Source: an uncultured Gammaproteobacteria bacterium (lineage in GTDB: Bacteria > Patescibacteriota > Microgenomatia > UBA12405). Taken from it: 64,000 bases of DNA. The translations under genes and the position numbers were made by a program. Shown here piece after piece: positions 3,804 to 54,185 of this stretch. Under the pieces are notes generated by a model. It made no database searches. It saw only the letters and a program-made list of their open reading frames with translations, and was not told the origin of the DNA. Each line of letters opens with the position of its first letter. The stretch's first letter is position 1. Location: positions 12,712 through 76,711 of the forward strand of contig CAZOQV010000001.1 of NCBI GenBank assembly GCA_964582365.1. The letters run 5' to 3'.

Positions 3804-5471
3804 ATGAAATTAAGTTCGAAAAAAATTATTATTTGTCTAGTTTTCATTGCTGTATTTTTACTGCCCATTAAAAAAATTCTGGCCGAAACTATTGCCACTT
3901 CTGTCATTGTTGGTAATTCCGCTCCTACTTTTAGTGTTCAACCTTTTGAAACAATTGCTTCTACCACCGCCGCTCCAACCAATGTCGGTTCTACTGTAAC
4001 TTTTCAAGCCACTGGTACCGATGGTAATAATGAAAATTATTATTTAGCTATTTGTAAGACCAATGCCATTACTGCCAATAACAACGGTGCTCCAACTTGT
4101 ACAGGTGGTTATTGGTGTATTTCTGGTTCCACCACTTCTGGTAGTCCTGGTAGCTGTGGTTTTGGTACTCTTCAAGCCACCCCAGAATCCAACAACTGGT
4201 ATGCTTTTATTTGTGATCATTCACCGTCTTCTGCTTGTTCAGCTTCCTCTCAAGGTACTGTTGGCGGTAACGGTTCTCCATTCGAAGTTAATCACCCTCC
4301 ATCATTTGTTTCAATCGGGGTTACCACTCCTTTAAGCCCAGGTTCAACTCAAACCTGGTCTACTACCATCGGTACTTCTGATGCCGACACCGGTGCCAGT
4401 GATACTGTCAATCTTGTTGTCTGTAAAACCACTGGTATTACCAATGGGGCTTGTGACGGTGGTGCCGCCGATACTTGGTGTAGCAGTTCTCCGGTTGCTA
4501 GTGCTCCAAGCTGTTCTATCGGTATCAGTATTCCCACTCTCGACATAGGTTATACTGCTTTTGTTTATGTTTTTGATAATCACAATTTAGCCGCCACTGG
4601 TGCTGTTCAAGCCAGTGTTGCCAATTATGTAATAAATAATATTGCTCCAGTTGTTAGTGCCATCACTTTAAATAGTTCGGTTGGAACCAGTGACATTACT
4701 TTAAATGAAGGCGCCACTACTCCAGTTGTTCTAGGTGCCACCATTACTGACAACAACGGTTGTCTTGATCTTGATTCTGTAGTTGCCAGTCTTTATCGTT
4801 CCGGTATTGGTTATTCAGATTGTGATACCGAGGGTGAAGCTAACCCTAACAATTGTTATCCCGCCATGACTTGTGAGGTTAATAATGCCGTCAATGCTTG
4901 TAGTGGTGCCACCGATGCCTCTGCCGCTTATATTTGTACTGCCAATGTTAAACATTATGCCGATCCTACGGTTGATAATACCACTTACTCTGCTCAAACT
5001 TGGCTTGATACTTTTAAGGCCAGTGATGAAGCTTTAGACGATGCCCAAACTCTTGGTGCTGGCGTTGAAATGAATGATTTATTAGCCATGGACATTGGTT
5101 CTTCCCTTGCTTTCGGTAATCTTTCTGCTGGTCAAAGTTTAAGCCCTTTAAGTGCTTTAACCGTTGTCACCGCTACTGGTAATGTCGGTCTCGATCAAAC
5201 CCTTGAAGGTACTCACATGTACAGCGTTGGTAACACCATTTCTGTTGAAAACCAAAAGTATTCTTTATCATCAGGAACCTCATATGCCAGTGGTATTGCC
5301 CTCGGTTTAACTCCTGTTGAAGCCGAATTAAATTGTAAAAAAACCACTTCTGATGTTGGTGAAACCAAACCAACCTACTGGGGTATTTACATTCCAATTG
5401 GAACAGTTGCTGGCACTTACGGTGGCACCAACACCGTCATAGCAGTTAAAGGTGAATTTGCCGCGTGGTAA
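3804..5471 (+). CDS. Secreted Cys-rich multidomain protein. It has an N-terminal signal peptide, two duplicated ~130-aa Cys-containing domains, then Ig-like domains
   Basis: MKLSSKKIIICLVFIAVFLLPIKKILA reads as a signal peptide. There is an internal duplication (GNSAPTFSV... versus VNHPPSFVS...) with conserved Cys spacing. Confidence 0.55.
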   Translation: MKLSSKKIIICLVFIAVFLLPIKKILAETIATSVIVGNSAPTFSVQPFETIASTTAAPTNVGSTVTFQATGTDGNNENYYLAICKTNAITANNNGAPTCTGGYWCISGSTTSGSPGSCGFGTLQATPESNNWYAFICDHSPSSACSASSQGTVGGNGSPFEVNHPPSFVSIGVTTPLSPGSTQTWSTTIGTSDADTGASDTVNLVVCKTTGITNGACDGGAADTWCSSSPVASAPSCSIGISIPTLDIGYTAFVYVFDNHNLAATGAVQASVANYVINNIAPVVSAITLNSSVGTSDITLNEGATTPVVLGATITDNNGCLDLDSVVASLYRSGIGYSDCDTEGEANPNNCYPAMTCEVNNAVNACSGATDASAAYICTANVKHYADPTVDNTTYSAQTWLDTFKASDEALDDAQTLGAGVEMNDLLAMDIGSSLAFGNLSAGQSLSPLSALTVVTATGNVGLDQTLEGTHMYSVGNTISVENQKYSLSSGTSYASGIALGLTPVEAELNCKKTTSDVGETKPTYWGIYIPIGTVAGTYGGTNTVIAVKGEFAAW

Positions 5472-5479
5472 TATAAATT

Positions 5480-6772
5480 ATGAAAAAACTTAGATTATTA
5501 ATCATACTCTTAACCGCCATTTTACCTTTTGTTTTAACAAAATCAGTTTTTGCCGGTTTTGGCGTTTCTCCAGCCGAAATCTATAACGACAGTCTAAAGC
5601 CAGGAGCAAAATTTGAGAAAGAAATTATTTTATCTAGATCAGATCCAGATGAGAATTTAAAAGTAATTATTGAAACTGATCTTCATGAAGCCGAATCTTG
5701 GATAAAATTTGAACCAGGTCGAGAATTTGTTTTTCCCAAAGGTGAAACTCGTATCTCTTTAAAAGTAACCATTAATGTTCCTGACAATGCTGAATTAAAA
5801 AATTACAAAGGTCTTTTAAGAATTAAAGCCGCATCCATGGATTCCACCAATTCTGGAGTTTCTATCGTCCAAGGTGCTCGCATGGAAGTTAATCTCGTCA
5901 CTACTTCCATTAATGTTGATATTTTAAGCATTAAAGGTTTAAATATTCCTAACGTCGATTTTCAGCAACCGATTAAACTTTTAGTTAATATTGAAAACAA
6001 TGGTAATACTGAAGTTACTCCTTCAAAAATTATTTTAGAAATCCAAGATTTAACTCAAACTACCATTGAAACTCAAGAAGTTACTAAACTTGATAAAGTT
6101 TCTCCCAATACCACCAAAGAAATAACTGCTGAATTTAAAAATAACCTAAACAGTGGTGAATACTTTGGTTTAGTTAAAGTTTATTTAAATGATAAATTAT
6201 TAAGATCTGATCGTTTAGTTTTCAAAATTAATGCCGCTCCAGAAGGTTACGTAGCCTTAACCACTAAAGATGCTAACTTGTTCTCCCGAATTTTTACTTT
6301 TATTAAAAATAATAAAGTCGAAACCATCGCCTTTATTTTAATTCCTCTGTTACCAATTCTTATTGGCTACATCTTATTTAAAAAATCGAAATCAACCAAG
6401 TTAAGGGTAATCTTTTTTATCGCCACTCTTGCCTATATAATTTTTATCATTATTTTAATCAGCCTTTATCATCAGAAACGTCTTAACGATCTCGCTAAAC
6501 CAGGTGATGGGGGAAATGTTCAAGGAGAAATGATTGAAGTAACTCCAACCGATATTCCCAAAGTATCTTCTCAGTCTCCTTTAATAGTAAATCAAGACAA
6601 TACTGGTTATTCTGTTTATCGAATTCCAGATTTAAGTTCCAATATCGTTTATACCGCGGTTGAGAATGAAAAACTCAATGTCGTTGGCGAAATAGAAGGT
6701 TGGTACCAGGTTTTAACCAGTAAAGGGGCTGGTGGTTGGTTACCAAAATCCAGCGTCAAGAAAACACAATAA
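5480..6772 (+). CDS. Signal-peptide protein with a central double TM anchor and a C-terminal bacterial SH3 (SH3b)-like domain
   Basis: An N-terminal hydrophobic leader, hydrophobic stretches IAFILIPLLPILIGYILF and VIFFIATLAYIIFIIILISLY, and the C-terminal motif GYSVYRIP...GWYQVLTSKGAGGWLPKSSV, which is typical of SH3b. The start lies 8 nt after the upstream stop. Confidence 0.55.
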   Translation: MKKLRLLIILLTAILPFVLTKSVFAGFGVSPAEIYNDSLKPGAKFEKEIILSRSDPDENLKVIIETDLHEAESWIKFEPGREFVFPKGETRISLKVTINVPDNAELKNYKGLLRIKAASMDSTNSGVSIVQGARMEVNLVTTSINVDILSIKGLNIPNVDFQQPIKLLVNIENNGNTEVTPSKIILEIQDLTQTTIETQEVTKLDKVSPNTTKEITAEFKNNLNSGEYFGLVKVYLNDKLLRSDRLVFKINAAPEGYVALTTKDANLFSRIFTFIKNNKVETIAFILIPLLPILIGYILFKKSKSTKLRVIFFIATLAYIIFIIILISLYHQKRLNDLAKPGDGGNVQGEMIEVTPTDIPKVSSQSPLIVNQDNTGYSVYRIPDLSSNIVYTAVENEKLNVVGEIEGWYQVLTSKGAGGWLPKSSVKKTQ

Positions 6773-16697: not shown

Positions 16698-18104
16698 TTA
16701 TTTTATCCTTGGAAATAAAGATTTTTCCAACGGTTTTACCTCATTTTTAAAACAATTTTCGATTTTTTTGGCCACTTCTGGCATCACAATTTGTAAGTGG
16801 TAGGAGGCAGTTTGAATATTTTTGATACATTCATTTAACACCGCAATTCTTTCTGGATTATCTTTTTCTAATTTCCATGGAGTAGTTTGATTTAGTTTTA
16901 AATTTGACGCATCAATCCATTTTTCAAACACCAAATTAATAGCTTCATCTAATTTTAAATTGTCAATCAATTTCTCAAATTCATTATCAAATTCAATTTT
17001 AATTTCTTCTGTTTTTACACCTTCAGATAATTTAGCTACTCTGGAAACTAAATTCCCTAAATTATTAGCCAAATCAGCATTATATTTTTCTTTAAATCTC
17101 TCCATTCCCACATCACTATCATTATCCGTCGGAAAAGATCTGGCCACTAAATATCTAGCCCCCTCCACTCCGAATATGTCAACTAATTGTCGTGGTGAGA
17201 TAACATTTCCCAAAGATTTCGACATTTTTTGTCCATCAACCATGTAAAAACTATGAGTATAAGTTTTTTTAGGTAACGCAATTTTGGCTGACAATAACAT
17301 TGCTTGCCAAATCACCGTATGAAACCACAAAATTTCTTTACCCAATAAATGTAAGTCAGCTGGCCAAAAATCCTTTTTACCTTCTAAAAATTGAGTTGCA
17401 CTATAATAATTTATTAAAGCATCAAACCACACATAAACAGTTTGTTTTGAATCCCAAGGAGTAGGAATTCCCCAAGCTACATTTTCCCTAGAAATTGACA
17501 CATCTCTAATTCCACTCTTTAATTTAGACAATATCTCTATTTTTTTTCCTTCTGGAAAAATATAATTAGTTTTTTCGTCTTCAATTAAATTAATAATTTG
17601 ATGAATATATTTACTTAATCTAAAAAACCAATTTTCTTCACTTTTAAAAACTGTTTTTTCTGGTGGGTGAAGATTGCAATGTTTATCAATCAAATCAGCC
17701 TCAGTTAAAAATTTTTCACAACCGATACAGTATAAACCTTCATATTTATCTTTATATACATCGCCATTATCGTAAATTTTTTGTAAAACCTCAGCCACCA
17801 CTTTTTCATGTCTTGGATCTGTCGTTCTAATAAAAAAATCATTACTTATATTTAACTCTTTCCAAGCACATTCAAATCTGGGTGAAATTTTATCGCAGTA
17901 TTCTTTTGTTCCGCAACATTCTTTTTGAGCCGATTCTGCCACCTTTTGGCCATGTTCATCTGTTCCAGTTAAAAAGAAGACTTCTTCCCCTTTCGCTCGG
18001 TGCAATCTCGCCACCATATCCGCTGCCACAGTCGTGCAGGTGTGTCCAATATGAGGAACGTCGTTAATATAATAAATTGGTGTTGTTACAAAAAATTTCT
18101 TCAT
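16698..18104 (-). CDS. metG: Methionyl-tRNA synthetase (short form without the C-terminal tRNA-binding domain)
   Basis: The HIGH-type motif PHIGH, KMSKS, and Zn-knuckle cysteines. ATG at 18104; GTG at 18107. Confidence 0.9.
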   Translation of the reverse strand: MKKFFVTTPIYYINDVPHIGHTCTTVAADMVARLHRAKGEEVFFLTGTDEHGQKVAESAQKECCGTKEYCDKISPRFECAWKELNISNDFFIRTTDPRHEKVVAEVLQKIYDNGDVYKDKYEGLYCIGCEKFLTEADLIDKHCNLHPPEKTVFKSEENWFFRLSKYIHQIINLIEDEKTNYIFPEGKKIEILSKLKSGIRDVSISRENVAWGIPTPWDSKQTVYVWFDALINYYSATQFLEGKKDFWPADLHLLGKEILWFHTVIWQAMLLSAKIALPKKTYTHSFYMVDGQKMSKSLGNVISPRQLVDIFGVEGARYLVARSFPTDNDSDVGMERFKEKYNADLANNLGNLVSRVAKLSEGVKTEEIKIEFDNEFEKLIDNLKLDEAINLVFEKWIDASNLKLNQTTPWKLEKDNPERIAVLNECIKNIQTASYHLQIVMPEVAKKIENCFKNEVKPLEKSLFPRIK

Positions 18105-18122
18105 CACCCTTATTTTCCCACA

Positions 18123-18443
18123 TTATTTAGTTTTTTTCTTGGTTACTTTTTTGATTACTTTCTTTGCGACCGCTTTTTTGGCCACAACTTTTTTAACACC
18201 TTCAGTTCCAGCTTTTTTAGAATAATGTGATTTAAGTCTGTCAGCTTTATTTTTATGAAAAAGATTATTCTTAACCGCTTTGTCGATAATAGAATAAACT
18301 CCTTTCAAAGATTCCTTGGTTGGTTTAGCTAAAAACTTTTTAACAGTAGTTTTTAACTTGTCTTTAAAAGAAACATTGTCCTTATGATTTTTCAAGGACT
18401 TTCTAAGTGATTTTTTTGCAGATAAACTAATTGGCATAGGCAT
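18123..18443 (-). CDS. rpsT: Ribosomal protein S20 with a Lys-rich C-terminal extension
   Basis: SAKKSLRKSLKNHKDN and LFHKNKADRLKSHYSKK match S20 motifs. The tail is AKKAVAKKVIKKVTKKKTK. Confidence 0.65.
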   Translation of the reverse strand: MPMPISLSAKKSLRKSLKNHKDNVSFKDKLKTTVKKFLAKPTKESLKGVYSIIDKAVKNNLFHKNKADRLKSHYSKKAGTEGVKKVVAKKAVAKKVIKKVTKKKTK

Positions 18444-18511
18444 TATTTTATCTTAACAATTACTTTTTTACAACTATATATAATGGCTAGTAATCAGATA
18501 TAATTTAAATT

Positions 18512-20125
18512 ATGACCGTCAAAGAGAGAATCAGACTTATAAGTCAAAAAAAACAAAGTACTATTTTGTCCGCCTCTTTGGTTTTGGCCACCACTTTTAT
18601 TGCTTCTTCCATCCTTGGTCTTCTAAGAAATCGTTTTCTTTACGCTAAATTTTATTCTTGTTGTGTTGCTGATCTTGATGTTTACAACGCCGCTTTTCGC
18701 ATTCCAGATTTAATTTTCAAACTTTTAGTTACCGGAGTTTTATCCGCTTCATTTATACCTGTTTTTTCCAGTTATCTACATAAAAATAAAAAAGCGGCTG
18801 ATGAAATTGCTTCTAGTGTTATTAATTTGCTCTTAATTGCCTTTATTATTATTTCTTCACTTTCTTTTATTTTTATAAAACCAATTTCCAGTTTAATTGC
18901 CTCCGGTTTTTCAGCCGATCAATTAGTTTTAATGGCCAATATCAGTCGAATTTTACTTTTTGCTCAAATATTTTTTCTTCTTAGTAATTTTGTCACCGCC
19001 ATTTTGCAAGTCAATCAAAATTTTATTATTCCCGCTCTTTCCCCTATCGTTTACAACTTATTTATTATCATCAGTATTTTTACTCTAACTCCTATTTTTG
19101 GAATTTATGGCGTTGCTATTGGTACTGTTATTGGCGCTTTTTTCCATCTTGCCATTCAAATACCAGTACTTCGCCATCAAGGTTTCCTTTATTCTCGTCA
19201 AATTAATCTAAAATTATCCGGTGTTAAAGAAATTTTTAGACTCATGGTCCCCAGAGTTTTATCGCTTGGATTAGGTGAAATTGAAAGTACTGTCACACTA
19301 TTTTTTGCCAGTTCATTGGCCTCCGGCTCCATCTCTCTTTTGAATCTTGCTCTTCAATTTATGTATTTACCAAGTCGTATTTTTGGCACCACCGTTGGTC
19401 AAGCCTCACTTCCAGCTCTTTCCAAAAACATTGCCCAAAATGAAATAGATAAGTTTAGAAATACTGTTAATAAAATTATAATTCAAAGTTTATTTATTGC
19501 CGTTCCTGTAAGTGTTTTAATCTTAGTTGAAAGAGTTTCTATCATTAGAATTCTTTATGGATCTCAAGAATTTCCTTGGTCTGCCACCATATTAACCTCC
19601 AAAATTTTAGCTTTCTTAATTCCTGGAATTGTTTGTCAAGCTGTAGTTCAAATATTAATTCGAGCTTTTTATGCTCTTCATAATACCAAGATTCCTTTCG
19701 TAATCTCTGCTATTTCTCTAATAGTAAATATTGTTGCCAGTTTCTTATTTATTCGTTTTACCAATCTTGGTGTTCTCGGCTTGGCTATCAGTGTTTCTAT
19801 CGGTAATTTAATTCAACTTTTTGGTTTATTAATCATGTTTATCAAAATTGTTGACGGCTTTGATTGGTCTTTAATGTTTAGCAAGTTTTACAAAATATTA
19901 ATTTCTTCAATTTTTATGGGTATTGTGTCTTGGTTATCTATAAAATTTTTAGATCTTTTTATTTTAGATACTGCTCGTACAATTTCTGTTTTAATTTTAG
20001 CCACCATATCTTCACTTATTGGCTTATTTACCTATGTTTTTATTGTTGTTTTTTTAAAAATGGATGAGATTAAAGATTATCGAAAATATTATTTAAGATT
20101 CAAGGATTTTATTTTCCACAGATAG
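18512..20125 (+). CDS. murJ: Lipid II flippase MurJ/MviN
   Basis: The N-terminus LRNRFLYAKF...DLDVYNAAFRIPDLIFKLLV and about 14 TM segments. Confidence 0.85.
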   Translation: MTVKERIRLISQKKQSTILSASLVLATTFIASSILGLLRNRFLYAKFYSCCVADLDVYNAAFRIPDLIFKLLVTGVLSASFIPVFSSYLHKNKKAADEIASSVINLLLIAFIIISSLSFIFIKPISSLIASGFSADQLVLMANISRILLFAQIFFLLSNFVTAILQVNQNFIIPALSPIVYNLFIIISIFTLTPIFGIYGVAIGTVIGAFFHLAIQIPVLRHQGFLYSRQINLKLSGVKEIFRLMVPRVLSLGLGEIESTVTLFFASSLASGSISLLNLALQFMYLPSRIFGTTVGQASLPALSKNIAQNEIDKFRNTVNKIIIQSLFIAVPVSVLILVERVSIIRILYGSQEFPWSATILTSKILAFLIPGIVCQAVVQILIRAFYALHNTKIPFVISAISLIVNIVASFLFIRFTNLGVLGLAISVSIGNLIQLFGLLIMFIKIVDGFDWSLMFSKFYKILISSIFMGIVSWLSIKFLDLFILDTARTISVLILATISSLIGLFTYVFIVVFLKMDEIKDYRKYYLRFKDFIFHR

Positions 20126-20142
20126 TCATATATACTGAATAT

Positions 20143-20721
20143 ATGGTCACTAAAAAAGAGCTGTCCCTTTTACCTGAATCTGAAAATCCAAGATCTTTTG
20201 GGGCTCGTTTTTTTAAGTGGTTAACCACTACCGGCAGAGTTGTAATTATTATAACTGAGTTTATTGTTATTTCCGTTTTTATTTCTCGTTTTTGGCTAGA
20301 TCGTAAAAACTCAGATTTATCTGAGGTTGTTCGTCAAAAACAAGCAATTTTAGAAAGCACTACTCCTTTTATCACTGAGTTTGTTGGACTTCAAAAAAGA
20401 TTATCTTTTATAAAAGATTTTTATTCGAATCAGCCAAATTATAATCAGCAAATTAATTCTTTGGTTTCCAGTACTCCATCTGATCTTTTTTATAATAAGA
20501 TTTCCGTTTTTACCGACGAAAAAACTAAAACAACAGTTATTACTACTTCTTTATCGGCCTACAAAGAAGAAAGCATTGTTTTGTTTATAACCAATCTAAT
20601 GTTGAACCCAGACATTGATCAAGTAAATATAAGTAAAATTGAAAAGAAAGAAAAAGAAAATCAATATTCCATTTCTCTCACTTTAAACTTTAAGAAAGCT
20701 CCAGCAGCTAATAAAATATGA
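20143..20721 (+). CDS. Single-TM bitopic protein, PilN-like (SLLP motif) or possibly divisome FtsL/DivIC-like
   Basis: The N-terminal ELSLLPE motif, a TM helix and a periplasmic domain. The ORF is translationally coupled to the next one. Confidence 0.35.
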   Translation: MVTKKELSLLPESENPRSFGARFFKWLTTTGRVVIIITEFIVISVFISRFWLDRKNSDLSEVVRQKQAILESTTPFITEFVGLQKRLSFIKDFYSNQPNYNQQINSLVSSTPSDLFYNKISVFTDEKTKTTVITTSLSAYKEESIVLFITNLMLNPDIDQVNISKIEKKEKENQYSISLTLNFKKAPAANKI

Positions 20722-21344
20722 TCAATACTAAAAATTGGTTTCAACTCAGACCTATGTATAGCTATATTCGAAAGCAGGCTGAAAACCAAAAATTTTTAAA
20801 ATATCTCGAGGTCGGTGGTACTTTTACTTTAATAGCTATTTTTTTATTTTTTGCCATTTTGCCCACCATGACCACCGTCTTTTCTCTTTTAGGTGATATA
20901 AAATCAAAAGAAATATATATTAAAAAAGTTAACGCCAAAATTAGTACTATTATTAAAGCTCAAAGCACATATGCCCAAGTTCAGGAAAATTTTTCATTAG
21001 TAGAAGATAGTTTTCCTTCGCAACCTCGATATCATAATGGAGCTTCTAACCTAGCTACTCTTTTTAGAGATTCGTTTTTAGATATAAATCAAATAAATTT
21101 TAGTTTAAACGATAAGTCTCGTGAGAGTAAGGATAATAGTTTTGGTTCTTATCAAGTCAACATAAGTGGCGAAGGACAGTATTCTGATATTCTAAATATA
21201 ACCAAAAACATGCTTAATAATCGTCGTCTAATTAATGCTTCTAATATTCAAATAAATCAATTAGAAGCTGACAAAAATAAAACAGGGTCAAATAAAGTTA
21301 AAATTAATATTTCTAATGATTTATATTATCTACTTGACGACTAA
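20718..21344 (+). CDS. Single-TM bitopic protein, PilO-like or divisome-like
   Basis: A TM helix followed by a coiled coil; ATGA overlap with the upstream ORF. Confidence 0.3.
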   Translation: MINTKNWFQLRPMYSYIRKQAENQKFLKYLEVGGTFTLIAIFLFFAILPTMTTVFSLLGDIKSKEIYIKKVNAKISTIIKAQSTYAQVQENFSLVEDSFPSQPRYHNGASNLATLFRDSFLDINQINFSLNDKSRESKDNSFGSYQVNISGEGQYSDILNITKNMLNNRRLINASNIQINQLEADKNKTGSNKVKINISNDLYYLLDD

Positions 21345-21655
21345 TGGAAAAAAATAAAATATCTTCCTACTTCATATTTATCTCTTTTTTTACTTTTTTG
21401 ACTGTATTTCTTTCTATAATTCAAAAAAGCTATTTTAGTTTTACTACTCCTCAAAAGTCAGTCGAAAATAATGCTCTTTTAGATAATTTTAATCCAGCTT
21501 TAGATTTAACTATTATTTCCACCATTGAATCTAAAAATAAAAATACTGACGAATTTTTCGATTTTTCAATTATAAAATCAAATCAGTCTGTTACTCCTAC
21601 TCCGGCTACTGAGACGTTAATTGCAACTTCGTCTGGTGAGGAGGTTACCCCTTGA
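21344..21655 (+). CDS. Small N-terminally anchored membrane protein
   Basis: A TM helix at residues 8-28, with TGATG coupling to the next gene. Confidence 0.3.
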   Translation: MEKNKISSYFIFISFFTFLTVFLSIIQKSYFSFTTPQKSVENNALLDNFNPALDLTIISTIESKNKNTDEFFDFSIIKSNQSVTPTPATETLIATSSGEEVTP

Positions 21656-23010
21656 TGTTTAAAGAAAAAAAATTTCCTACTATTCTTGGTCTTTTGCTTC
21701 TTTTTGGAGGAGTTGTTGCTGGGGTTTTTTTAACCAATCAACGAACCGGTTTTGTTTCCAAAGCCAATAGTAGTTGTCAACCTAAAAACCCTCAAATAAC
21801 CAATACTACCAACAATTCTGCTTCTATTTCTTTTGTGACCGAATCGTCTTGTTTTTCCTCTCTTCTTATTAATAATCAGACAATCGAAAACAAAGCTGCT
21901 GTTAGTGTTGATCAAAAAAGCAAAATTCATTATTTTGATGTTAATAATTTAACTCCTGCTGCTAATTATATTTTTTCTTTTATTATCGATGGGAAAAAAT
22001 ACGAAGAACCTTCATATGAATTTAAAACAGCTGATAATCCCAGTGGTTCAATTCCGTCTTCAAATTTAGCTTGGGGTCGAGTTTTTACTCCAGAACCAGA
22101 GTTAAAAGCTGCCCATAAAGTTATTGTTTTTCTTACCATTCCTGGATCAACACCTTTATCTGCTCTTGTTACTTCTTCTGGCAATTGGAACATTTCTTTA
22201 GCCAACAGTTTTAACGAGTCGAAGACTGGCAGATTTACTGCAACTAAAAATATCAGTGAAGAAATTATTGTAATTGATCAAAATAATCAAGCCACTCAGA
22301 TTACAGGTAATACTTCGAATAATAATCCAGTTCCAGACATTATCTTAGGTCAAAATCAATTTTCCGCCGCCGCTATTATTTATGACACGGAAACTGATAC
22401 TGGTTCTTTATCTTCTGTTACTCCAGCTTTAGAATCAAAAGAGCTAGATATTTTAAACCCAAAAGAAAATGAAGCTATTTCTACTCAGAAACCAGATTTC
22501 TTTGGAACTAGTCCTGGTAACTCTATTATTAAAATAGAAATTCATTCTCCGACAACTTATAGCGGGGAAGTTGTTTCTAATAGCGATGGTTCTTGGAATT
22601 GGTCTCCACCTTCAAATCTAGAACCAGGAGAACACACCATCACTGCCACCACTATTATTAATGGAGTTGAAAAAATAATAACCAGAAAATTTACTGTTCT
22701 TGCTACTGACAGTGGTCTTGCTTACACCGCTTCTTCTTCAGCTACTACTCCTACCCCTACCCCTACTGTTACTTCCATTCCTACTATTGCTCCTACCCCT
22801 ACTACTATGGAAATTTCTACCCCCACTGCCACTATAATTCCAACTTCAACTCCCGATGAAATTCCCACTTCTTCTCCCACTGTTATGGTTAGTACTCCTA
22901 GCACTAGCTCTGGTATTCCCAAAACTGGTAATCTATTTTCCACAATTCTATTACTTTTAGTCTCATCATCTTTTATTGCTTTTTCTTTTTTCTCTTTTAA
23001 GAAAAAATAA
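21655..23010 (+). CDS. Cell-surface protein with a C-terminal sortase sorting signal (IPKTG + hydrophobic segment + KKK), a Pro/Thr-rich stalk and Ig-like domains
   Basis: The SD GGAGG lies 10 nt upstream of the ATG at 21655. The C-terminus is SGIPKTGNLFSTILLLLVSSSFIAFSFFSFKKK, and a PT-rich linker spans 22740-22910. Confidence 0.6.
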   Translation: MFKEKKFPTILGLLLLFGGVVAGVFLTNQRTGFVSKANSSCQPKNPQITNTTNNSASISFVTESSCFSSLLINNQTIENKAAVSVDQKSKIHYFDVNNLTPAANYIFSFIIDGKKYEEPSYEFKTADNPSGSIPSSNLAWGRVFTPEPELKAAHKVIVFLTIPGSTPLSALVTSSGNWNISLANSFNESKTGRFTATKNISEEIIVIDQNNQATQITGNTSNNNPVPDIILGQNQFSAAAIIYDTETDTGSLSSVTPALESKELDILNPKENEAISTQKPDFFGTSPGNSIIKIEIHSPTTYSGEVVSNSDGSWNWSPPSNLEPGEHTITATTIINGVEKIITRKFTVLATDSGLAYTASSSATTPTPTPTVTSIPTIAPTPTTMEISTPTATIIPTSTPDEIPTSSPTVMVSTPSTSSGIPKTGNLFSTILLLLVSSSFIAFSFFSFKKK

Positions 23011-23054
23011 TATTTTATTTTCAGTCGACTGTTTTTAATGGTATCATTATTCAA

Positions 23055-23984
23055 ATGTCAGGAATATTTTTTTTTAACGCTGTATCAAGAGAAATTCGTG
23101 TTTCTCAATGGATAAAAAATTTAAGTATTTTTTCGGCTATCATCTTAAATGGTCAACTTCTTAATCCTCTACTTTTTTGGAAGACTTTTTTTGCCTTTAT
23201 TGCTTTTTGTTTATTGTCCTCTTCTTCTTATATCGTCAATGATCTTTTTGATGTTAAAAAAGATCGACTACACCCTGTCAAAAAAAACCGTCCCATTGCT
23301 CATGGTGATATCTCGGAAGCAACCGGAATTTTTTTGGCTTTCCTTCTTCTTTTTTTAGGGCTAGGAATAACTATCTTTATTAGTTATGGGTTTTTTATCC
23401 TTTCTCTTGTTTTTGTTTTACTTCAATATTCCTATTCTCTGTTTTTAAAAAAGAAGGCCATTATCGACATCATGGGAATTGCTTTGTTTTTTATAATTCG
23501 TGCTTATGCCGGTGAAGTCGTTACTGGTTATCATCTTCCCATTTGGATCATGCTAACTGTTATCTTTTTATCTTTATTTATCGCTAGTGGAAAACGTCGT
23601 AGCGAATTGGTAAATATTGGTACTAAAACTCGTTCGGCTTTGGCTGGTTACGGTAAAAGTTTATTAAATTTTTATACCACCATGTTTGCTGTTTGTACTT
23701 TAATAACCTACGCCATGTTTACTTTTTTGGAAGAATCAATCAGTTTCACTGGTTCTGGTATTTTACATAATTTTCTCTTGGAAAATTTTCCTAACGCTTT
23801 AAATCGTAAATGGTACATGGTCACCCTTTTACCGGTAATTTTTGGCATTATGCGCTATGGTCAAATAATTTTTGAAATGCAAGAAGGTGAGAGACCAGAA
23901 AGAATAGTTGCTCGTGATATGCCAATTTTATTTTCAGTTCTAATTTGGGGATTGATGATAATTGGTATTATCTATGTACTCTAA
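23055..23984 (+). CDS. UbiA-family prenyl-phosphate phosphoribosyltransferase-like protein (DPPR-synthase/Rv3806c-like)
   Basis: The motif NDLFDVKKDRLHPVKKNRPIAHG (NDxxDxxxD followed by RPIA.G) and 8-9 TM helices. Confidence 0.7.
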   Translation: MSGIFFFNAVSREIRVSQWIKNLSIFSAIILNGQLLNPLLFWKTFFAFIAFCLLSSSSYIVNDLFDVKKDRLHPVKKNRPIAHGDISEATGIFLAFLLLFLGLGITIFISYGFFILSLVFVLLQYSYSLFLKKKAIIDIMGIALFFIIRAYAGEVVTGYHLPIWIMLTVIFLSLFIASGKRRSELVNIGTKTRSALAGYGKSLLNFYTTMFAVCTLITYAMFTFLEESISFTGSGILHNFLLENFPNALNRKWYMVTLLPVIFGIMRYGQIIFEMQEGERPERIVARDMPILFSVLIWGLMIIGIIYVL

Positions 23985-25566
23985 TAAAATAAAAAAATTT
24001 CTAATTCCATTTTTTTTGATATTTCTGATTATTTTTACTCGCTTTTCTTTTCTCAATTGGGGTAACGGTTTTTTCTTTAATCCAGATGAAAATAATATGG
24101 CCAATGCTGTATTAAAAATGACTCCATCAGATCTTAATCCAAAATTTTTTGCCTATGGTCAATTCCCGCTTTTTTTAACTTTTTTTACCACTCCTCTTCA
24201 TAAATTTTCCACCATTATTTTAACTCTTCGTTTTTGGTCAGCCACTTTTTCTTCCCTGTCAATTTTATTTTTTTATCTTATTGCCAATCATATTTTTAAA
24301 TCTAAAAAATTAAACTACATTTTTACCTTATTATTAATTTTTACTCCGGGATTAATTCAATCTGCTCATTTTGGCACCACTGAATCGCTTTTAATTTTTG
24401 TTTTTTCTGTCAATATTTTTTTGTCTTTAAAATATTATCAAGATCAAAAAAAACTATATTTTCTATTTTCAATTTTAATCAGTGCTATCGGTCTTGGCTC
24501 TAAGATAACAGCTATATTCTTCATTTTACCTATCTATTTTTGTTTCTTTTTGATTTTTTTAAAAGATAAAAAAATTTTAAATTTTATTTTCACTGTTTTT
24601 ATTTTCACTCTTCTAGTTTCACTTCTCTCACTCCTTTTTTCTCCATTTAACATCATAAAATTTTCAGATTTTAAATCATCAATGGTTTACGAAACATCAG
24701 TGGCTACTGGTAAAACTCTAGTTTTTTACACTCGTCAATTTGAAAACTCATTACCTTACCTTTTTCAAATTAAAAAAGTTTTTCCATATGCTAACGGTAT
24801 TTTTATCTTCATTTTTTCTTTTATAGGATTTTATTTATTTCTTAAATCATATTTCTTAAACTTGCCCCGCAACTGCTGGGGTCATAAATCAAATTTACTT
24901 TTAGTATTAATTCCTTCAATAATATATTTTGCTTATTCTGGTCAACTTTTTATTAAATGGTCTCGTTTTGTCTCACCTCTTTTTTTTATTGCTCCGTTTT
25001 TTTGTCTTTTTATTTTTCAAAAAATTAAAAACAAATTTTTAACTTTAATTTTATTAATAATTATGATTACTCCTGGAGTTTATTTTTTCTCAAAATATTT
25101 TTCACCAGACATCAGAATTAATGCTTCTAATTGGATTAATTCAAATATCCCAGCAGATTCTTTTGTTTTATCTGAAGGCGGAAATGTTGTGGATATTCCT
25201 CTTTCAAATAACAAACTTCATATTAGTAATTTTGATTTTTATCAATTGGATTCAAATAATAGTTTTTTTAATAAATTGACCAATGATTTAACTTCGGCTG
25301 ATTATATTTTTATTCCTTCTCGCCGGGTTTTTAAAAATCAAAATAATAAAAATTATCCAATATCACAAAAATATTATCAAAATTTATTTTCAGAAAATAT
25401 CGGTTTTAAGGAAATAAAAATTATTAATAATCAAAAAGATTTATTTTTAAATTCTGAAAATGCTGAAGAAACTTGGTCTGTTTTTGATTCCCCCACTATT
25501 AGAATTTACAAAAAAGTTATCAATTTGTCTCCAGATGATTACCAAGAATTGTTTAAAAATAATTAA
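23974..25566 (+). CDS. GT-C superfamily (PMT/ArnT-like, GT39/83) polyprenyl-phosphate-sugar-dependent glycosyltransferase
   Basis: About 12 TM helices and the loop-1 motif NPDENNMANA. It is a paralog of the next gene, sharing LNPKFFAYG.FP. Confidence 0.65.
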   Translation: MYSNKIKKFLIPFFLIFLIIFTRFSFLNWGNGFFFNPDENNMANAVLKMTPSDLNPKFFAYGQFPLFLTFFTTPLHKFSTIILTLRFWSATFSSLSILFFYLIANHIFKSKKLNYIFTLLLIFTPGLIQSAHFGTTESLLIFVFSVNIFLSLKYYQDQKKLYFLFSILISAIGLGSKITAIFFILPIYFCFFLIFLKDKKILNFIFTVFIFTLLVSLLSLLFSPFNIIKFSDFKSSMVYETSVATGKTLVFYTRQFENSLPYLFQIKKVFPYANGIFIFIFSFIGFYLFLKSYFLNLPRNCWGHKSNLLLVLIPSIIYFAYSGQLFIKWSRFVSPLFFIAPFFCLFIFQKIKNKFLTLILLIIMITPGVYFFSKYFSPDIRINASNWINSNIPADSFVLSEGGNVVDIPLSNNKLHISNFDFYQLDSNNSFFNKLTNDLTSADYIFIPSRRVFKNQNNKNYPISQKYYQNLFSENIGFKEIKIINNQKDLFLNSENAEETWSVFDSPTIRIYKKVINLSPDDYQELFKNN

Positions 25567-27334
25567 AAAAAGAAAAAATATTTTTTTATTAATATTAATT
25601 TTTTTGATATCTTTTTCTTTTAGAATCATCGGACTAAATTGGGATCAAGGTAACCATCTCCATCCAGACGAAAGGATGATTACTATGGTGGCAGAAAAAA
25701 TTGCTTTTCCCACTATCGACCCCAAATTAACTTTAAGCGAAAAAGTTGGAATTTTGTTTGATTCCAAGTCTTCTCTTAATCCAAAATTTTTTGCCTACGG
25801 ATCTTTTCCGATCTATTTACTAAAAGGAGTTTCTTATCTGCTTTCTTTTGTAGACCCGTCATTAGTCACTTACGGAAAAATGAATTTAGTCGGTCGTTTT
25901 TTATCAGCTATTTTTGATTCTTTAACAGTCATATTAATTTTTAAAATAACCTTACAAATTTTTAACTCAAATAAAAAGGCCCTATTTGCGGCTTTATTTT
26001 ATTCTTTATCAATATTACCAATACAACTTTCTCACTTTTACGCTGTCGATACTCTCTTAACTTTTTTTATTTTTTTTACTCTATATCACGCGATCTGTCT
26101 TTATCAAAAATTTAATTTTAGAAATGCTCTTTTTGTTGGAATTGGTTTTGGTCTTTCCTTGGCCACTAAAATAAGTGCCACTGTTTTAGTTTTTTCTCTA
26201 GGTATTGGTTTAATTGTTAGTATTTTTCTTTCACTTAAAAAAGAAATTTTTGGAGAAAATATCAGTTTTCTAAAGAAAATTAGAAAATATTTAGGAAAAA
26301 TATTTAGTCTTAAGTTTTGGAGTTTTAGAAAACAACATCAATTAAAAGACATATTTCTTTATTTTTTATTAATAATGTTTGTTACGGAAATAGTTTTTAT
26401 TGCTTTTCAGCCATTTGCCCTTTTTGATTTTAATGAATTTTGGAAACAACTTAATCAGCAAAAAGCCATGACAAAAAACGCTTTTATTTTTCCTTACACT
26501 CTTCAATATGTCAATACAATTCCCTATCTCTATCAACTAAAAAATATATTTTTATGGGGGTTAGGGCCAGTCTTTGGGATTTTTGCTTTGTTCGGCGGAA
26601 TTTACACTTTTTTAAAATTAATTAAAGGCTTATTTACTCCGGGTAATGAAAAATCTGAAGGTTCTCAATTAATCATTTTTTCCTTTTTTATTATTTATTT
26701 TTTAATTATTGGACGATTTGCTGTAAAGTTTAATCGTTATTGTTTACCACTTTATCCAATTTTTGCCATTTTTGCCTCCAACTTTATTTTTTCTCTTAAA
26801 AAGAAAAAATTAATTATTGTTTTTTCATTGTTTCATTTTTTGTGGTTATTTGCTTTTATGAATATTTACAAAGTTCCAAATACTCGTGTCTCTGCCACTG
26901 AATGGATTAAACAAAATGTTCCTGCGGGCAGTACTATTCTAAGAGAACATTGGGATGACGGTCTTCCTTTGGGTTATCATAATAATTTAAATTTAATCGA
27001 ATTGCAGTTATATGATTCGGATAATAATCCCCAAAAATGGCCTTCGATTAAAAATTATTTAAATAAAGGCGACTATTTAATTATCGCCAGTAACCGACTT
27101 TATACTCCTCTCCAAAAACTAACCGATTGTAAAAATTTACCTAAAGATAAGTGTTATGTCACCACTGCCAATTATTATAAAGATTTATTTTCAGACAAAT
27201 TAGGTTATTCTAAAGTAGCCGAATTTTCTAGTTATCCAAACATTTTTGGTTTAAATATCAACGATCAATCAGCTGACGAATCATTCACTGTTTATGATCA
27301 TCCCAAAGTGATAATATTTAAAAATATTAATTAA
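25535..27334 (+). CDS. GT-C superfamily glycosyltransferase, paralog of the 23974..25566 gene
   Basis: The HPDER loop motif and polytopic topology. The start is uncertain: the ATG at 25535 overlaps the upstream gene by 32 nt, and the ORF-track start at 25460 overlaps it by 107 nt. Confidence 0.65.
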   Translation: MITKNCLKIIKKRKNIFLLILIFLISFSFRIIGLNWDQGNHLHPDERMITMVAEKIAFPTIDPKLTLSEKVGILFDSKSSLNPKFFAYGSFPIYLLKGVSYLLSFVDPSLVTYGKMNLVGRFLSAIFDSLTVILIFKITLQIFNSNKKALFAALFYSLSILPIQLSHFYAVDTLLTFFIFFTLYHAICLYQKFNFRNALFVGIGFGLSLATKISATVLVFSLGIGLIVSIFLSLKKEIFGENISFLKKIRKYLGKIFSLKFWSFRKQHQLKDIFLYFLLIMFVTEIVFIAFQPFALFDFNEFWKQLNQQKAMTKNAFIFPYTLQYVNTIPYLYQLKNIFLWGLGPVFGIFALFGGIYTFLKLIKGLFTPGNEKSEGSQLIIFSFFIIYFLIIGRFAVKFNRYCLPLYPIFAIFASNFIFSLKKKKLIIVFSLFHFLWLFAFMNIYKVPNTRVSATEWIKQNVPAGSTILREHWDDGLPLGYHNNLNLIELQLYDSDNNPQKWPSIKNYLNKGDYLIIASNRLYTPLQKLTDCKNLPKDKCYVTTANYYKDLFSDKLGYSKVAEFSSYPNIFGLNINDQSADESFTVYDHPKVIIFKNIN

Positions 27335-34114: not shown

Positions 34115-35158
34115 ATGTCCACTAAGATTCTTACTATTAAAGACAAAGAAATCTACAATTCGAAAATAATTCATCCAGTTCAAACGTGGGATTGGGGAGA
34201 TTTTCAAATTTCTCAAGGTCACACAGTTTATCGTCTCGGTGTTTTCAATAATGATGACAAAATAATTTCCGCCTATTCCATCAGTTTTCATAAAGTTCCC
34301 AAAACTAAATTTTCTATTGGCACTATTCTCCGTGGCCCAGAAATTGATGATGAAACCATTAAAAAAGTTACTGAAATTGCCCAACAAGAAAATGCTATTT
34401 TTGTTAAATTCGAACCAAATGTTATTTATCAAAAATTTGACAATTTAAATAATAAATCTCTTATTTTTCCAAAACCAGATTTTAAACATCTAAAAAAATC
34501 ACCCAAGGTTGCCTTTTATCCATTCACTTACATAGTTGATTTAACTAAAACCGAAACTGAAATTTTAGAATCAATGCACTCCAAAACTCGCTACAATATC
34601 CGAGTTGCTAACCGTTATGGTGTTGAAATTAAAGAACAAACTGACGATCAAGGCTTTGAAATTTATTTAAAACTTCTCCTTGCCACCACTAAACGCCAAG
34701 GGTTTTATTTACACACCGAAAAATATCATCGTGATTTATGGAAGAAATTAAAGAAAACTGGCATGATTCATATTATGTTGGCTTCTTATGATAATCAAGT
34801 TATTTCCGCTTTTATGATTTTTAATGTCAAAGATCAATTATTTTATCCATATGGTGCGTCTCTCGATATTAATCGCCAAGTTATGGCTCCGACTCTTTTA
34901 ATGTGGGAAGTAATTAAACTTGGTCAAAAATTAAAATGTTCGACTTTTGATATGTGGGGTTGTCTTGGTCCTCACGCCAAAGAAACTGAAAATGGTTATG
35001 GTTTTCACCGATTTAAACAAGGATTTGGTGGTGAACTTAATGAATATGTTGGTACTTACGATTTAATCATCAACCCGACTTTATATAAAATTTACAATTC
35101 AGTTGATAAAATTCGCTGGAAACTTCTCCGTCTCAAAGCCTCAATTTTAAGAAAATAA
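34115..35158 (+). CDS. FemAB-family peptidyltransferase (peptidoglycan interpeptide-bridge formation)
   Basis: FemAB/Acetyltransf_8-like conservation (YPYGAS, RFKQGFGG). Confidence 0.65.
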   Translation: MSTKILTIKDKEIYNSKIIHPVQTWDWGDFQISQGHTVYRLGVFNNDDKIISAYSISFHKVPKTKFSIGTILRGPEIDDETIKKVTEIAQQENAIFVKFEPNVIYQKFDNLNNKSLIFPKPDFKHLKKSPKVAFYPFTYIVDLTKTETEILESMHSKTRYNIRVANRYGVEIKEQTDDQGFEIYLKLLLATTKRQGFYLHTEKYHRDLWKKLKKTGMIHIMLASYDNQVISAFMIFNVKDQLFYPYGASLDINRQVMAPTLLMWEVIKLGQKLKCSTFDMWGCLGPHAKETENGYGFHRFKQGFGGELNEYVGTYDLIINPTLYKIYNSVDKIRWKLLRLKASILRK

Positions 35159-50773: not shown

Positions 50774-50780
50774 ATAAATT

Positions 50781-51245: not shown

Positions 51246-51260
51246 TATATACAAAAAACT

Positions 51261-53156: not shown

Positions 53157-53164
53157 AAATTAAT

Positions 53165-53193
53165 AATTAATATTGTAGAGACGTCCCGCTGGG
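53165..53193. repeat. REP-like palindrome copy 1: GTAGAGACG-N11-CGTCTCTAC (extendable to 13 bp with one G.U pair)
   Basis: Perfect 9-bp arms in the dnaK-dnaJ spacer, GC-rich against an AT-rich background. Confidence 0.6.
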
Positions 53194-53232
53194 GCGTCTC
53201 TACGCGATTGTTGATAATGATAAAATAGACCC

Positions 53233-54090: not shown

Positions 54091-54138
54091 TTTTTCTGGT
54101 ATAATCTATACATATTAATTTTGCAGTGTTTTAACCTG

Positions 54139-54161
54139 GGGCTGACAAAGCCCTTTTTTTT
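54139..54161 (+). terminator. Rho-independent terminator after dnaJ
   Basis: gggct-gacaa-agccc followed by T8. Confidence 0.55.
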
Positions 54162-54185
54162 ACCCTGCATATTTAAGGAAACAAA

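What the first reader, a model, noticed from the sequence alone, without database searches (positions are those of the whole stretch)
20143..23010. MurJ-adjacent trio of single-TM proteins plus an IPKTG sortase substrate
Three translationally coupled small bitopic proteins follow murJ; the first has a PilN-like SLLP N-terminus. The fourth gene is coupled by a TGATG overlap and preceded by a strong GGAGG SD. It encodes a 451-aa protein with Ig-like domains, a PT-rich stalk and a textbook sortase signal (IPKTG + hydrophobic segment + KKK). The group could be a pilus or competence assembly module (PilN/O-like) or divisome components (FtsL/DivIC/DivIB-like) with a cell-wall-anchored partner
Basis: partly seen in the sequence, partly recalled or inferred. 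Interest (0 to 1): 0.5.

Follow-up and report, generated by a model that had tools for sequence, protein, structure and literature searches.

The report
PilN–PilO pilus module with wall-anchored partner
Two of the small membrane proteins after murJ are divergent PilN and PilO (type IV pilus alignment proteins) of an uncultivated Shapirobacteria-type (CPR/Microgenomates) bacterium. Across this lineage they are always translationally coupled to an orphan small membrane protein and to a three-domain surface protein with a sortase-like anchor signal, a pairing that has not been described.

Summary
Four tightly coupled genes (20143-23010, +) follow murJ. Gene 1 is a divergent PilN. Pfam is sub-threshold on the window protein, but 110 of 125 family representatives hit PF05137. 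The family profile hits M. xanthus PilN at E=2e-8. The AF2 model's best PDB match is Thermus PilN. Gene 2 is PilO: Pfam gives 21.0 bits against a cut-off of 22, 30 of 38 orthologs hit PF04350, and the top PDB hit is PilO. Gene 3 is an orphan bitopic protein with one short conserved motif.

Gene 4 has a signal peptide, three beta-sandwich domains, a PT-rich linker and a C-terminal IPKTG + hydrophobic + KKK signal. That signal is conserved as [IVML]Px[TSA]G in 117 of 120 homologs.

The divisome reading found no support. No pilM, pilB, pilC or sortase lies in the 64 kb window or in about 160 related loci. The literature reports sortase as near-ubiquitous in Microgenomates.

The module murJ/rpsT–pilN–pilO–g3–g4 persists across about 30%-identity relatives despite rearrangements. 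The PilN/PilO calls are already made by public annotation pipelines. The conserved link to a wall-anchored partner is the modestly new part. Interest is about 0.35.

The parts
18512..20125 (+). murJ (lipid II flippase), a conserved neighbour and not part of the module proper
   Evidence: Pfam MurJ E=7.3e-77. It is adjacent to the module in all 80 Shapirobacteria loci. In distant Microgenomates it is also adjacent but on the opposite strand, with rpsT in between.
20143..20721 (+). g1: divergent PilN (192 aa). It has a cytoplasmic N-terminus with an invariant SLLP, one TM, a long coiled-coil helix and an alpha-beta-beta-alpha-beta-beta domain.
   Evidence: Pfam PilN E=2.3e-3, 18.4 bits, below GA 22.8. 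110 of 125 family representatives hit PF05137. The family profile hits M. xanthus PilN 3jc8_Na at E=2e-8. The AF2 model has pLDDT 83. The Foldseek top hit is Thermus PilN 4bhq, followed by GspL/EpsL/PulL/XcpY domains.
20164..20175 (+). SLLP motif (aa 8-11) in the cytoplasmic N-terminus of g1, the counterpart of the PilN INLLP motif
   Evidence: S8, L9, L10 and P11 are invariant in 32 orthologs. The consensus of 125 wider relatives is INLLP. E. coli HofN has INFLPWR.
20718..21344 (+). g2: PilO (208 aa), overlapping g1 by ATGA
   Evidence: Pfam PilO E=4e-4, 21.0 bits vs GA 22. 30 of 38 orthologs hit PF04350, best 2e-8. The ortholog profile's top PDB hit is M. xanthus PilO 3jc8_Oa at E=1e-3. Orthologs are named 'type 4a pilus biogenesis protein PilO' by NCBI and 'Tfp pilus assembly protein PilO' by JGI.
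21344..21655 (+). g3: orphan small bitopic protein (103 aa). It has an N-terminal TM, the conserved motif LLxPxxPxLDxxxLxxIExR and an S/T/P-rich tail.
   Evidence: No Pfam, NCBIfam or PDB match. A homologous small ORF sits between pilO and g4 in both Shapirobacteria and distant Microgenomates.
21640..21644 (+). GGAGG Shine-Dalgarno-like sequence, 10 nt before the g4 ATG
   Evidence: Read directly from the sequence.
21655..23010 (+). g4: secreted three-domain beta-sandwich stalk protein (451 aa) with a PT-rich linker and an LPXTG-like C-terminal sorting signal
   Evidence: The AF2 model has pLDDT 80. It shows a helix at aa 7-26, beta-sandwiches at aa 44-124, 138-252 and 265-348, a disordered stretch at aa 353-422 and a helix at aa 427-449. 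Pfam Big_13 E=4e-7. A distant ortholog also hits fn3/Pur_ac_phosph_N and CarboxypepD_reg. Foldseek returns only generic FN3/Ig tandem arrays.
22915..23007 (+). C-terminal sorting signal of g4: IPKTG (22915-22929), a hydrophobic segment (22930-22998) and KKK (22999-23007)
   Evidence: [IVML]Px[TSA]G is present in 117 of 120 homologs. TIGR01167 LPXTG_anchor scores 11.1 bits over aa 422-451, cut-off 15.9. In distant lineages the motif is [VIT]P[DE]SG-xLxPT.

Best explanation
The window comes from a Candidatus Shapirobacteria-like (CPR, Microgenomates) genome. Genes 1 and 2 encode the PilN and PilO subunits of the type IV pilus 'alignment' platform. Both are bitopic membrane proteins whose coiled coils and ferredoxin-like ectodomains pair outside the membrane. 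PilN's short cytoplasmic N-terminus (invariant SLLP, the local form of INLLP) is the handle that normally docks the actin-like PilM.

In this lineage pilN-pilO are not in the main pilus locus. They form a translationally coupled operon with two lineage-specific envelope proteins. One is a small bitopic protein (g3). The other is a Sec-exported stalk of three beta-sandwich domains (g4). Its PT-rich linker and [IVML]Px[TSA]G + hydrophobic (+ usually basic) C-terminus are most simply read as a sortase signal for covalent attachment to peptidoglycan.

The inferred mechanism is that g3 and g4 sit where pilP/pilQ sit in diderm pilMNOPQ operons. They would tie the membrane platform to the cell wall of an organism that has no outer membrane and no secretin.

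Shown: the gene structure, PilN/PilO family and fold, the domain architecture of g4, conservation of the C-terminal motif, and conservation of the four-gene module.

Inferred: interaction with a PilM encoded elsewhere, sortase cleavage of g4, and any physical or functional link of g3/g4 to the pilus machine.
For: PilN.

PilO.

Coupling: 4-nt and 1-nt overlaps at the junctions.

Module conservation:
- All 80 GTDB Shapirobacteria loci long enough to show the module keep murJ-g1-g2-(g3)-g4.
- All 38 distant Microgenomates loci with enough downstream sequence have a small ORF and a profile-detectable g4 relative after pilO. Of these, 24 are full-length with the C-terminal signal.
- This holds although the murJ-rpsT pair is inverted and the hrcA-dnaK block has moved.

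Sorting signal:
- The motif is conserved in 117 of 120 homologs.
- 54 unrelated neighbouring ORFs in related loci carry LPx[AST]G-xxxP[TS]-TM C-termini. One reaches the TIGR01167 cut-off, which indicates a clade-wide sorting system.
- FemAB is present in the window.

Literature:
- PilB/T/C/M/N/O are enriched in CPR, PilQ is absent, and sortase is near-ubiquitous in Microgenomates (PMC6744442).
- A complete Microgenomates genome lists PilA/B/C/D/T/M at one locus, without PilN/O, and has a sortase (PMC7143001).
Against: - The window proteins themselves fall just below the Pfam cut-offs (18.4/22.8 and 21.0/22).
- The Foldseek E-values for g1 are modest (2e-3).
- No pilM, pilB, pilC, pilD, pilin or sortase gene is in the 64 kb window or within 10 kb of the module in about 160 related loci. 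Membership in a working pilus machine and sortase processing are therefore not demonstrated for this genome.
- g4 scores below the LPXTG_anchor cut-off.
- In distant lineages the motif drifts to VPDSG/TPESG/ATDSG, and some Shapirobacteria homologs lack the basic tail.
- g3 and g4 show no similarity to PilP, PilQ or any pilus protein.
- The neighbours are cell-envelope biosynthesis genes (murJ, UbiA, PMT-type GT-C, PAP2, DUF2298), which fits a non-pilus envelope role equally well.
Confidence: 0.6

Rival explanations
1. The PilN/PilO-like pair has been recruited away from pili. Together with g3 and g4 it would form a Microgenomates-specific envelope complex that works with cell-wall or surface-glycan biogenesis (MurJ lipid II flippase, UbiA prenyltransferase, PMT-type glycosyltransferases, PAP2, DUF2298). 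For example, it could scaffold secretion, glycosylation or wall attachment of surface proteins.
For: - The module is always next to murJ and rpsT and usually near PMT/DUF2298 genes. This holds even in lineages where other neighbours have been rearranged.
- pilM is never adjacent.
- In distant lineages the module is followed by further secreted and sorted proteins.
- No terminator-like site lies between murJ and UbiA.
Against: - The N-terminal PilM-binding-type motif is invariant, which argues for a cytoplasmic PilM-like partner.
- PilN/PilO family proteins are only known in type IV filament machines (established knowledge).
- Adjacency of pilMNOPQ-type genes to a peptidoglycan synthase gene also occurs in E. 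coli (hofM-mrcA) without implying a non-pilus role.
- Strong general synteny in these small genomes weakens any inference from neighbourhood.
Confidence: 0.2
2. g4 is an ordinary surface adhesin or stalk protein that merely shares an operon with pilN-pilO. Its C-terminus would be a plain membrane anchor, or the signal for a different sorting enzyme, rather than a sortase substrate.
For: - Fold matches are generic FN3/Ig adhesin arrays.
- TIGR01167 scores below its cut-off.
- Position 4 varies among T/S/A, and distant motifs (VPDSG, ATDSG, DLDSG) depart from LPXTG.
- Many neighbouring LPxAG proteins lack the positively charged tail typical of sortase signals.
- No sortase was found nearby.
- Five of 38 distant loci have a truncated g4 without the anchor.
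Against: - Start and stop codon overlaps with g3/pilO are conserved over deep divergence.
- The tripartite signal is retained in 117 of 120 close and 24 of 38 distant homologs.
- LPXTG_anchor is the only sorting-domain model that matches at all, with no PEP-CTERM or VPDSG-CTERM hit.
- Sortase is reported as near-ubiquitous in Microgenomates (PMC6744442).
Confidence: 0.25
3. The three small bitopic proteins are divisome components (FtsL/DivIC/DivIB-like) placed next to murJ.
For: Only the topology (single TM plus coiled coil) and the murJ neighbourhood.
Against: - No FtsL/FtsB/DivIC/FtsQ/DivIB hit in Pfam or NCBIfam for any of the three.
- The g1 fold matches PilN/GspL/PilO and not the POTRA domains of FtsQ/DivIB.
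- The profiles hit PilN and PilO in the PDB.
Confidence: 0.03

Closest known systems
PilN (PF05137; Thermus thermophilus PilN 4BHQ, Myxococcus xanthus PilN in 3JC8)
   Same: Size of about 190 aa. Short cytoplasmic N-terminus with an (I/L)(N/S)LLP motif, one TM, a coiled coil, and an alpha-beta-beta-alpha-beta-beta ectodomain. The gene lies immediately before pilO.
   Different: The window protein scores just under the Pfam cut-off. No pilM lies upstream; murJ or rpsT is there instead. The motif is SLLP rather than NLLP in the Shapirobacteria.
PilO (PF04350; M. xanthus PilO in 3JC8)
   Same: Bitopic, about 210 aa, with a conserved C-terminal RR(L/I)V region aligned to PilO. It follows pilN with overlapping codons.
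   Different: 21.0 bits against a cut-off of 22. It is followed by an orphan small protein and a wall-anchored protein rather than by pilP/pilQ or nothing.
pilMNOPQ / hofMNOPQ operons of diderm bacteria
   Same: Gene order N-O followed by two envelope proteins. The operon neighbours a peptidoglycan-synthesis gene: mrcA in E. coli and murJ here.
   Different: No pilM in the operon. g3 and g4 are not homologous to the PilP lipoprotein or the PilQ secretin. CPR lack PilQ (PMC6744442).
LPXTG sortase substrates of Gram-positive bacteria (TIGR01167)
   Same: Signal peptide, beta-sandwich domains, a Pro/Thr-rich wall-spanning linker, and a pentapeptide ending in G, followed by a hydrophobic segment and a K-rich tail.
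   Different: The motif is [IVML]Px[TSA]G, or VPDSG-like in sister lineages. The model score is below its cut-off. The cognate sortase was not located.
T2SS GspL/GspM periplasmic domains
   Same: The same ferredoxin-like fold. They rank 3, 4, 14 and 48 among the Foldseek hits for g1.
   Different: g1 lacks the large cytoplasmic actin-like domain of GspL. No T2SS genes are present.
Pam pili of CPR bacteria (Troman et al. 2026, bioRxiv 10.64898/2026.03.03.709456), especially PamR (two FnIII domains plus a C-terminal TM)
   Same: CPR-specific Ig/FnIII-type surface proteins with a C-terminal membrane segment. They are reported in Microgenomatia.
   Different: The pam operon has chaperone-like PamC/D and lies beside ATP synthase genes. 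Here the context is pilN-pilO/murJ, with no chaperone-like gene. No sequence comparison was possible because the Pam sequences are not held.

Membership tests
PilN (PF05137) | Match to the curated family profile above its gathering score | tested here: inconclusive
   The window protein scores 18.4 bits, E=2.3e-3, against a cut-off of 22.8. However, 110 of 125 representatives found with the ortholog profile hit PF05137 at E<=1e-3, best 1.7e-15.
PilN (PF05137) | Profile-level homology to an experimentally placed PilN | tested here: met
   The family profile A2 hits M. xanthus PilN (3jc8_Na) at E=2.1e-8 as the only significant PDB hit.
PilN (PF05137) | Architecture and fold: short cytoplasmic N-terminus, one TM, coiled coil, ferredoxin-like alpha-beta-beta x2 ectodomain | tested here: met
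   The AF2 model (pLDDT 83) has H19-95, H100-109, E116-124, E131-139, H142-154, E158-169 and E174-183. The Foldseek top hits are 4bhq PilN (prob 1.0, TMt 0.63), followed by GspL-family domains and PilO.
PilN (PF05137) | Conserved N-terminal INLLP-type motif (PilM-binding peptide) | tested here: met
   SLLP is invariant in 32 orthologs. INLLP is the consensus in 125 relatives. Compare E. coli HofN INFLPWR. That this motif binds PilM is established knowledge (Thermus PilM-PilN peptide structure), recalled and not tested here.
PilN (PF05137) | Encoded with pilM and other pilus genes | tested here: not met
   No pilM/B/C/D/T in the 64 kb window. The upstream neighbour is murJ or rpsT in all related loci that extend upstream, about 150 of the 164. 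Whether pilM exists elsewhere in the genome could not be tested.
PilO (PF04350) | Match to the curated family profile | tested here: inconclusive
   21.0 bits, E=4e-4, against a cut-off of 22 for the window protein. 30 of 38 orthologs hit PF04350, best 2e-8. Orthologs are named PilO by NCBI PGAP and JGI.
PilO (PF04350) | Homology to a structurally placed PilO, and position directly after pilN | tested here: met
   The ortholog profile's top PDB hit is M. xanthus PilO 3jc8_Oa at E=1e-3. The gene overlaps pilN by ATGA.
Sortase (LPXTG-type) substrate | C-terminal pentapeptide + hydrophobic segment + basic tail recognised by TIGR01167 | tested here: inconclusive
   IPKTG + 23 hydrophobic residues + KKK is present. 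TIGR01167 scores 11.1 bits against a cut-off of 15.9. The motif is conserved as [IVML]Px[TSA]G in 117 of 120 homologs.
Sortase (LPXTG-type) substrate | N-terminal Sec signal peptide | tested here: met
   A K-rich n-region, a hydrophobic helix at aa 7-26 and then SKA|N. This was judged by eye; no signal-peptide predictor was available.
Sortase (LPXTG-type) substrate | A sortase encoded in the same genome | not testable with these tools
   None was found in the window (Pfam/NCBIfam scans) or in 164 related loci (TLxTC search). The literature reports sortase as near-ubiquitous in Microgenomates (PMC6744442).
Divisome FtsL/DivIC(FtsB)/DivIB(FtsQ) | Profile or fold similarity to FtsL, FtsB/DivIC or the POTRA-containing FtsQ/DivIB | tested here: not met
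   No such Pfam or NCBIfam hit for g1-g3 at E<=1 and E<=0.1 respectively. No such structure appears among the listed (best 50) Foldseek matches of g1.
PilP / PilQ | Lipoprotein with a PilP beta-sandwich domain; secretin and N0 domains | tested here: not met
   g3 has no lipobox and no family hit. g4 hits only Big_13 and generic FN3/Ig folds.

The most novel reading that the evidence does not exclude
In Microgenomates, which have type IV pili but no outer membrane and no secretin, the pilus alignment platform may have acquired its own cell-wall module. This module would be a small bitopic adaptor (g3) plus a sortase-anchored, probably glycosylated three-domain stalk (g4), joined in sister lineages by further sorted and Cys-rich proteins. 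Together they would form the peptidoglycan-spanning collar or guide of the machine, a monoderm functional replacement for PilP/PilQ/TsaP. It is encoded beside the lipid II flippase gene, so that wall insertion and wall synthesis could be coordinated.
Probability: 0.2. Interest if true: 0.65.

Novelty: new variant of a known kind. Interest (0 to 1): 0.35.

Why it matters
CPR/Patescibacteria depend on type IV pili for host attachment, motility and probably DNA uptake. How a type IV pilus crosses a Gram-positive-type wall is poorly understood in any monoderm.

This work finds a conserved operon that couples PilN/PilO to a wall-anchored protein across a large uncultivated lineage. That gives a concrete candidate for the missing membrane-to-wall link. 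It also defines a lineage-specific sorting motif ([ILVM]Px[TSA]G-xxxPT) that could be used to list the sorted surface proteome of Microgenomates.

If the link is only genomic, the finding reduces to a correct but routine annotation of divergent pilN/pilO.

Tried and rejected
- Divisome reading: rejected, with no profile or fold support.
- Sequence search of the g1 ortholog profile alone against the PDB: nothing significant. It worked only after widening the family.
- hhalign of the g1 and g2 profiles: no significant relation (prob 3.7%). hhalign of the family profile against E. coli HofN: weak (prob 45%).
It was repeated with A3.
- Search for sortase by the TLxTC motif in 6,162 ORFs of 164 loci: none. 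No other sorted protein in the window.
- NCBIfam at E<=10 on g4 and on sorted neighbours: only LPXTG_anchor appeared, with no PEP-CTERM or VPDSG-CTERM type model.
- g3: no PDB, Pfam or NCBIfam match.
- g4 fold search: only generic FN3/Ig arrays. The afdb50 library was unavailable.
- Attempts to extend beyond the window ends by exact-protein look-up: three gave no record and one gave a short contig.
- Promoter and terminator scan of 18000-24200: no more sites than in shuffled sequence.
- Pam pilus relation: considered and set aside on gene context. It was not tested by sequence.
- Literature search for the INLLP motif: nothing relevant.
Full report
**What is there.** The window is low-GC (about 0.26-0.40). 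Its gene content fits a CPR/Patescibacteria genome, and homologs of the genes in question carry the names Candidatus Shapirobacteria or Woesebacteria.

Downstream of murJ (18512-20125; Pfam MurJ E=7e-77) lie four same-strand ORFs:
- g1 20143-20721 (192 aa)
- g2 20718-21344 (208 aa)
- g3 21344-21655 (103 aa)
- g4 21655-23010 (451 aa)

The junctions are ATGA, TAATG and TGATG. A GGAGG lies 10 nt before the g4 ATG.

**Gene 1 is PilN.** On its own the protein gives only a sub-threshold Pfam PilN hit (E=2.3e-3, 18.4 bits against 22.8). It has 334 close homologs, some named PilN by JGI.

A profile of 32 orthologs finds 987 representatives among 1.84 billion proteins. Of 125 representatives tested, 110 hit PF05137, with a best E-value of 1.7e-15. 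The widened profile hits M. xanthus PilN (3jc8_Na) at E=2e-8 as the only significant PDB match.

The AF2 model (pLDDT 83) shows a TM plus coiled-coil helix (aa 19-95) followed by alpha-beta-beta-alpha-beta-beta. Its best PDB matches are, in order:
- Thermus PilN (4bhq)
- the GspL/EpsL/PulL/XcpY periplasmic domains
- Amuc_1100
- PilO of 3jc8

No divisome protein appears among the listed (best 50) matches.

The cytoplasmic N-terminus carries an invariant SLLP. In the wider family this reads INLLP; compare E. coli HofN INFLPWR. From established knowledge, this is the peptide that binds PilM.

**Gene 2 is PilO.** Four results support this:
- Pfam PilO scores 21.0 bits against 22.
- 30 of 38 orthologs hit PF04350.
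- NCBI and JGI name orthologs PilO.
- The ortholog profile's top PDB hit is M. xanthus PilO (E=1e-3).

**Gene 3 is an orphan.** It is conserved across Microgenomates as an N-terminal TM plus the motif LLxPxxPxLDxxxLxxIExR plus an S/T/P-rich tail. It has no match in Pfam, NCBIfam or the PDB.

**Gene 4.** The AF2 model (pLDDT 80) gives the following layout:
- an N-terminal hydrophobic helix (signal peptide)
- three beta-sandwich domains
- a disordered PT-rich stretch of about 70 residues
- a C-terminal helix

By Pfam on this protein and on a distant ortholog, the three domains are FN3-like, CarboxypepD_reg-like and Big_13. Structural neighbours are generic FN3/Ig arrays.

The C-terminus is IPKTG + hydrophobic segment + KKK. 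The motif is conserved as [IVML]Px[TSA]G in 117 of 120 homologs. In lineages at about 30% identity it reads [VIT]P[DE]SG-xLxPT.

TIGR01167 (LPXTG_anchor) is the only sorting-signal model that matches. It scores below its cut-off for g4 (11.1 against 15.9) and just above it for a neighbouring LPQSG protein in a related locus.

In related loci, 54 unrelated ORFs carry LPx[AST]G-xxxP[TS]-TM C-termini. The clade therefore appears to have a common sorting signal, although those ORFs often lack the basic tail.

**Context.** No pilM, pilB, pilC, pilD, pilT, pilin or sortase is detectable in the 64 kb window. A FemAB-family gene is present.

In 80 species-level Shapirobacteria genomes the block tatD-metG-rpsT | murJ-g1-g2-g3-g4-ubiA-PMT-PMT-PAP2-DUF2298 is invariant.

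In 80 metagenome loci of more distant Microgenomates (g1 about 30% identical), the order is murJ(-) rpsT(+) pilN pilO small-ORF g4. The hrcA-grpE-dnaK-dnaJ-nusA block lies beyond murJ there, whereas in the window it sits about 30 kb away.

The four-gene module and its murJ/rpsT neighbourhood thus survive an inversion and other rearrangements. All 38 distant loci with enough sequence have a g4-related gene after the small ORF:
- 24 are full-length with the anchor signal.
- 5 are truncated.
- 2 are 350-aa variants without the anchor motif.
- 7 give only weak, partial matches.

Several lineages add a Pro/Cys-rich membrane protein and LPxAG proteins downstream.

**Literature.** Meheust et al. 2019 (PMC6744442) report three things. 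PilB/T/C/M/N/O are enriched in CPR. PilQ is absent. [quoted passage not shown]

A closed Microgenomates genome lists its pilus genes at one locus, including PilM but not PilN/O, and also has a sortase (PMC7143001). That fits pilN-pilO being encoded apart from the main locus, as seen here. Saccharibacteria, by contrast, keep pilM-N-O together (PMC11623550).

The recently described Pam pili of CPR have a different operon context.

**Interpretation.** The PilN/PilO assignment is solid at the family level (confidence about 0.9). It is already made by public pipelines for orthologs.

What is not in the literature I could search is the lineage-wide translational coupling of pilN-pilO to an orphan bitopic protein and a wall-anchor-type stalk protein. 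These two occupy the position that pilP-pilQ occupy in diderms.

The most economical mechanism has three parts. PilN/PilO form the membrane platform that docks a PilM encoded elsewhere. g4 is exported and attached to peptidoglycan by the housekeeping sortase. g3 and g4 then connect or guide the machine through the wall. The last two steps are inference.

The main rival is a non-pilus envelope role, suggested by the murJ/UbiA/PMT neighbourhood. A parallel weakens that argument: E. coli hofMNOPQ abuts mrcA.

**Verdict.** This is a new variant of a known system, of modest interest.

Noticed in passing
L125:12793-14061, L097:12871-14301, L117:8400-9599 (absent from the window between 23010 and 23055): In distant Microgenomates a fifth gene follows g4. 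It starts 'MPD(Q/E)N', has a Pro-rich cytoplasmic N-terminus, and has a TM resembling g4's N-terminal TM (…TILGLLxLxGGxGAGVxL). It also has a Cys-rich ectodomain and a conserved C-terminal beta domain (CLNIKAFDTDW…). It has no Pfam or NCBIfam hit.
   Followed up: partly
54 ORFs in L001-L164, e.g. L001:12951-14180, L123:4955-5512, L129:16405-18066: Unrelated secreted proteins near the module share a C-terminal LPx[AST]G-xxxP[TS]-hydrophobic signal. It usually ends in LILL/LLLAL with no basic tail. This looks like a clade-wide, atypical sorting signal. Only one of those tested reaches the TIGR01167 cut-off.
   Followed up: partly
L165 (E. coli K-12 3518500-3524500): hofMNOPQ lies divergently next to mrcA (PBP1a). 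Pilus alignment genes therefore sit beside a peptidoglycan-synthesis gene, mirroring pilN-pilO beside murJ here.
   Followed up: no
window 34115-35158: A FemAB-family gene (E=3e-37) is present. It implies peptide cross-bridges on lipid II, the usual nucleophile for sortase anchoring.
   Followed up: no
window 50036-55184 versus L125:2157-7849: The hrcA-grpE-dnaK-dnaJ-nusA block directly abuts murJ in distant Microgenomates. In the window it lies about 30 kb downstream of the module. The module's murJ/rpsT neighbourhood therefore survived rearrangements that moved other neighbours.
   Followed up: partly
window 63014-63586: A 190-aa ORF resembles a REP-associated tyrosine transposase (NCBIfam NF047646, 52.8 bits, below the cut-off of 80).
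   Followed up: no
window 99-3707 and 3804-6772: There is a 1202-aa FG-GAP repeat protein with an Ig-like domain. It is followed by a 555-aa protein with no family hit and a 430-aa protein ending in an SH3b domain. This may be another surface-protein cluster. None of the three carries the C-terminal sorting signal.
   Followed up: no
window 23962-25566 and 25460-27334: The two PMT_2-type GT-C glycosyltransferase ORFs overlap by 107 nt as listed. In an identical contig the second gene is called shorter (599 aa, L003), so its true start is probably downstream. PMT-type enzymes next to a protein with a long S/T/P-rich linker suggest O-glycosylation of g4. This is speculative.
   Followed up: no
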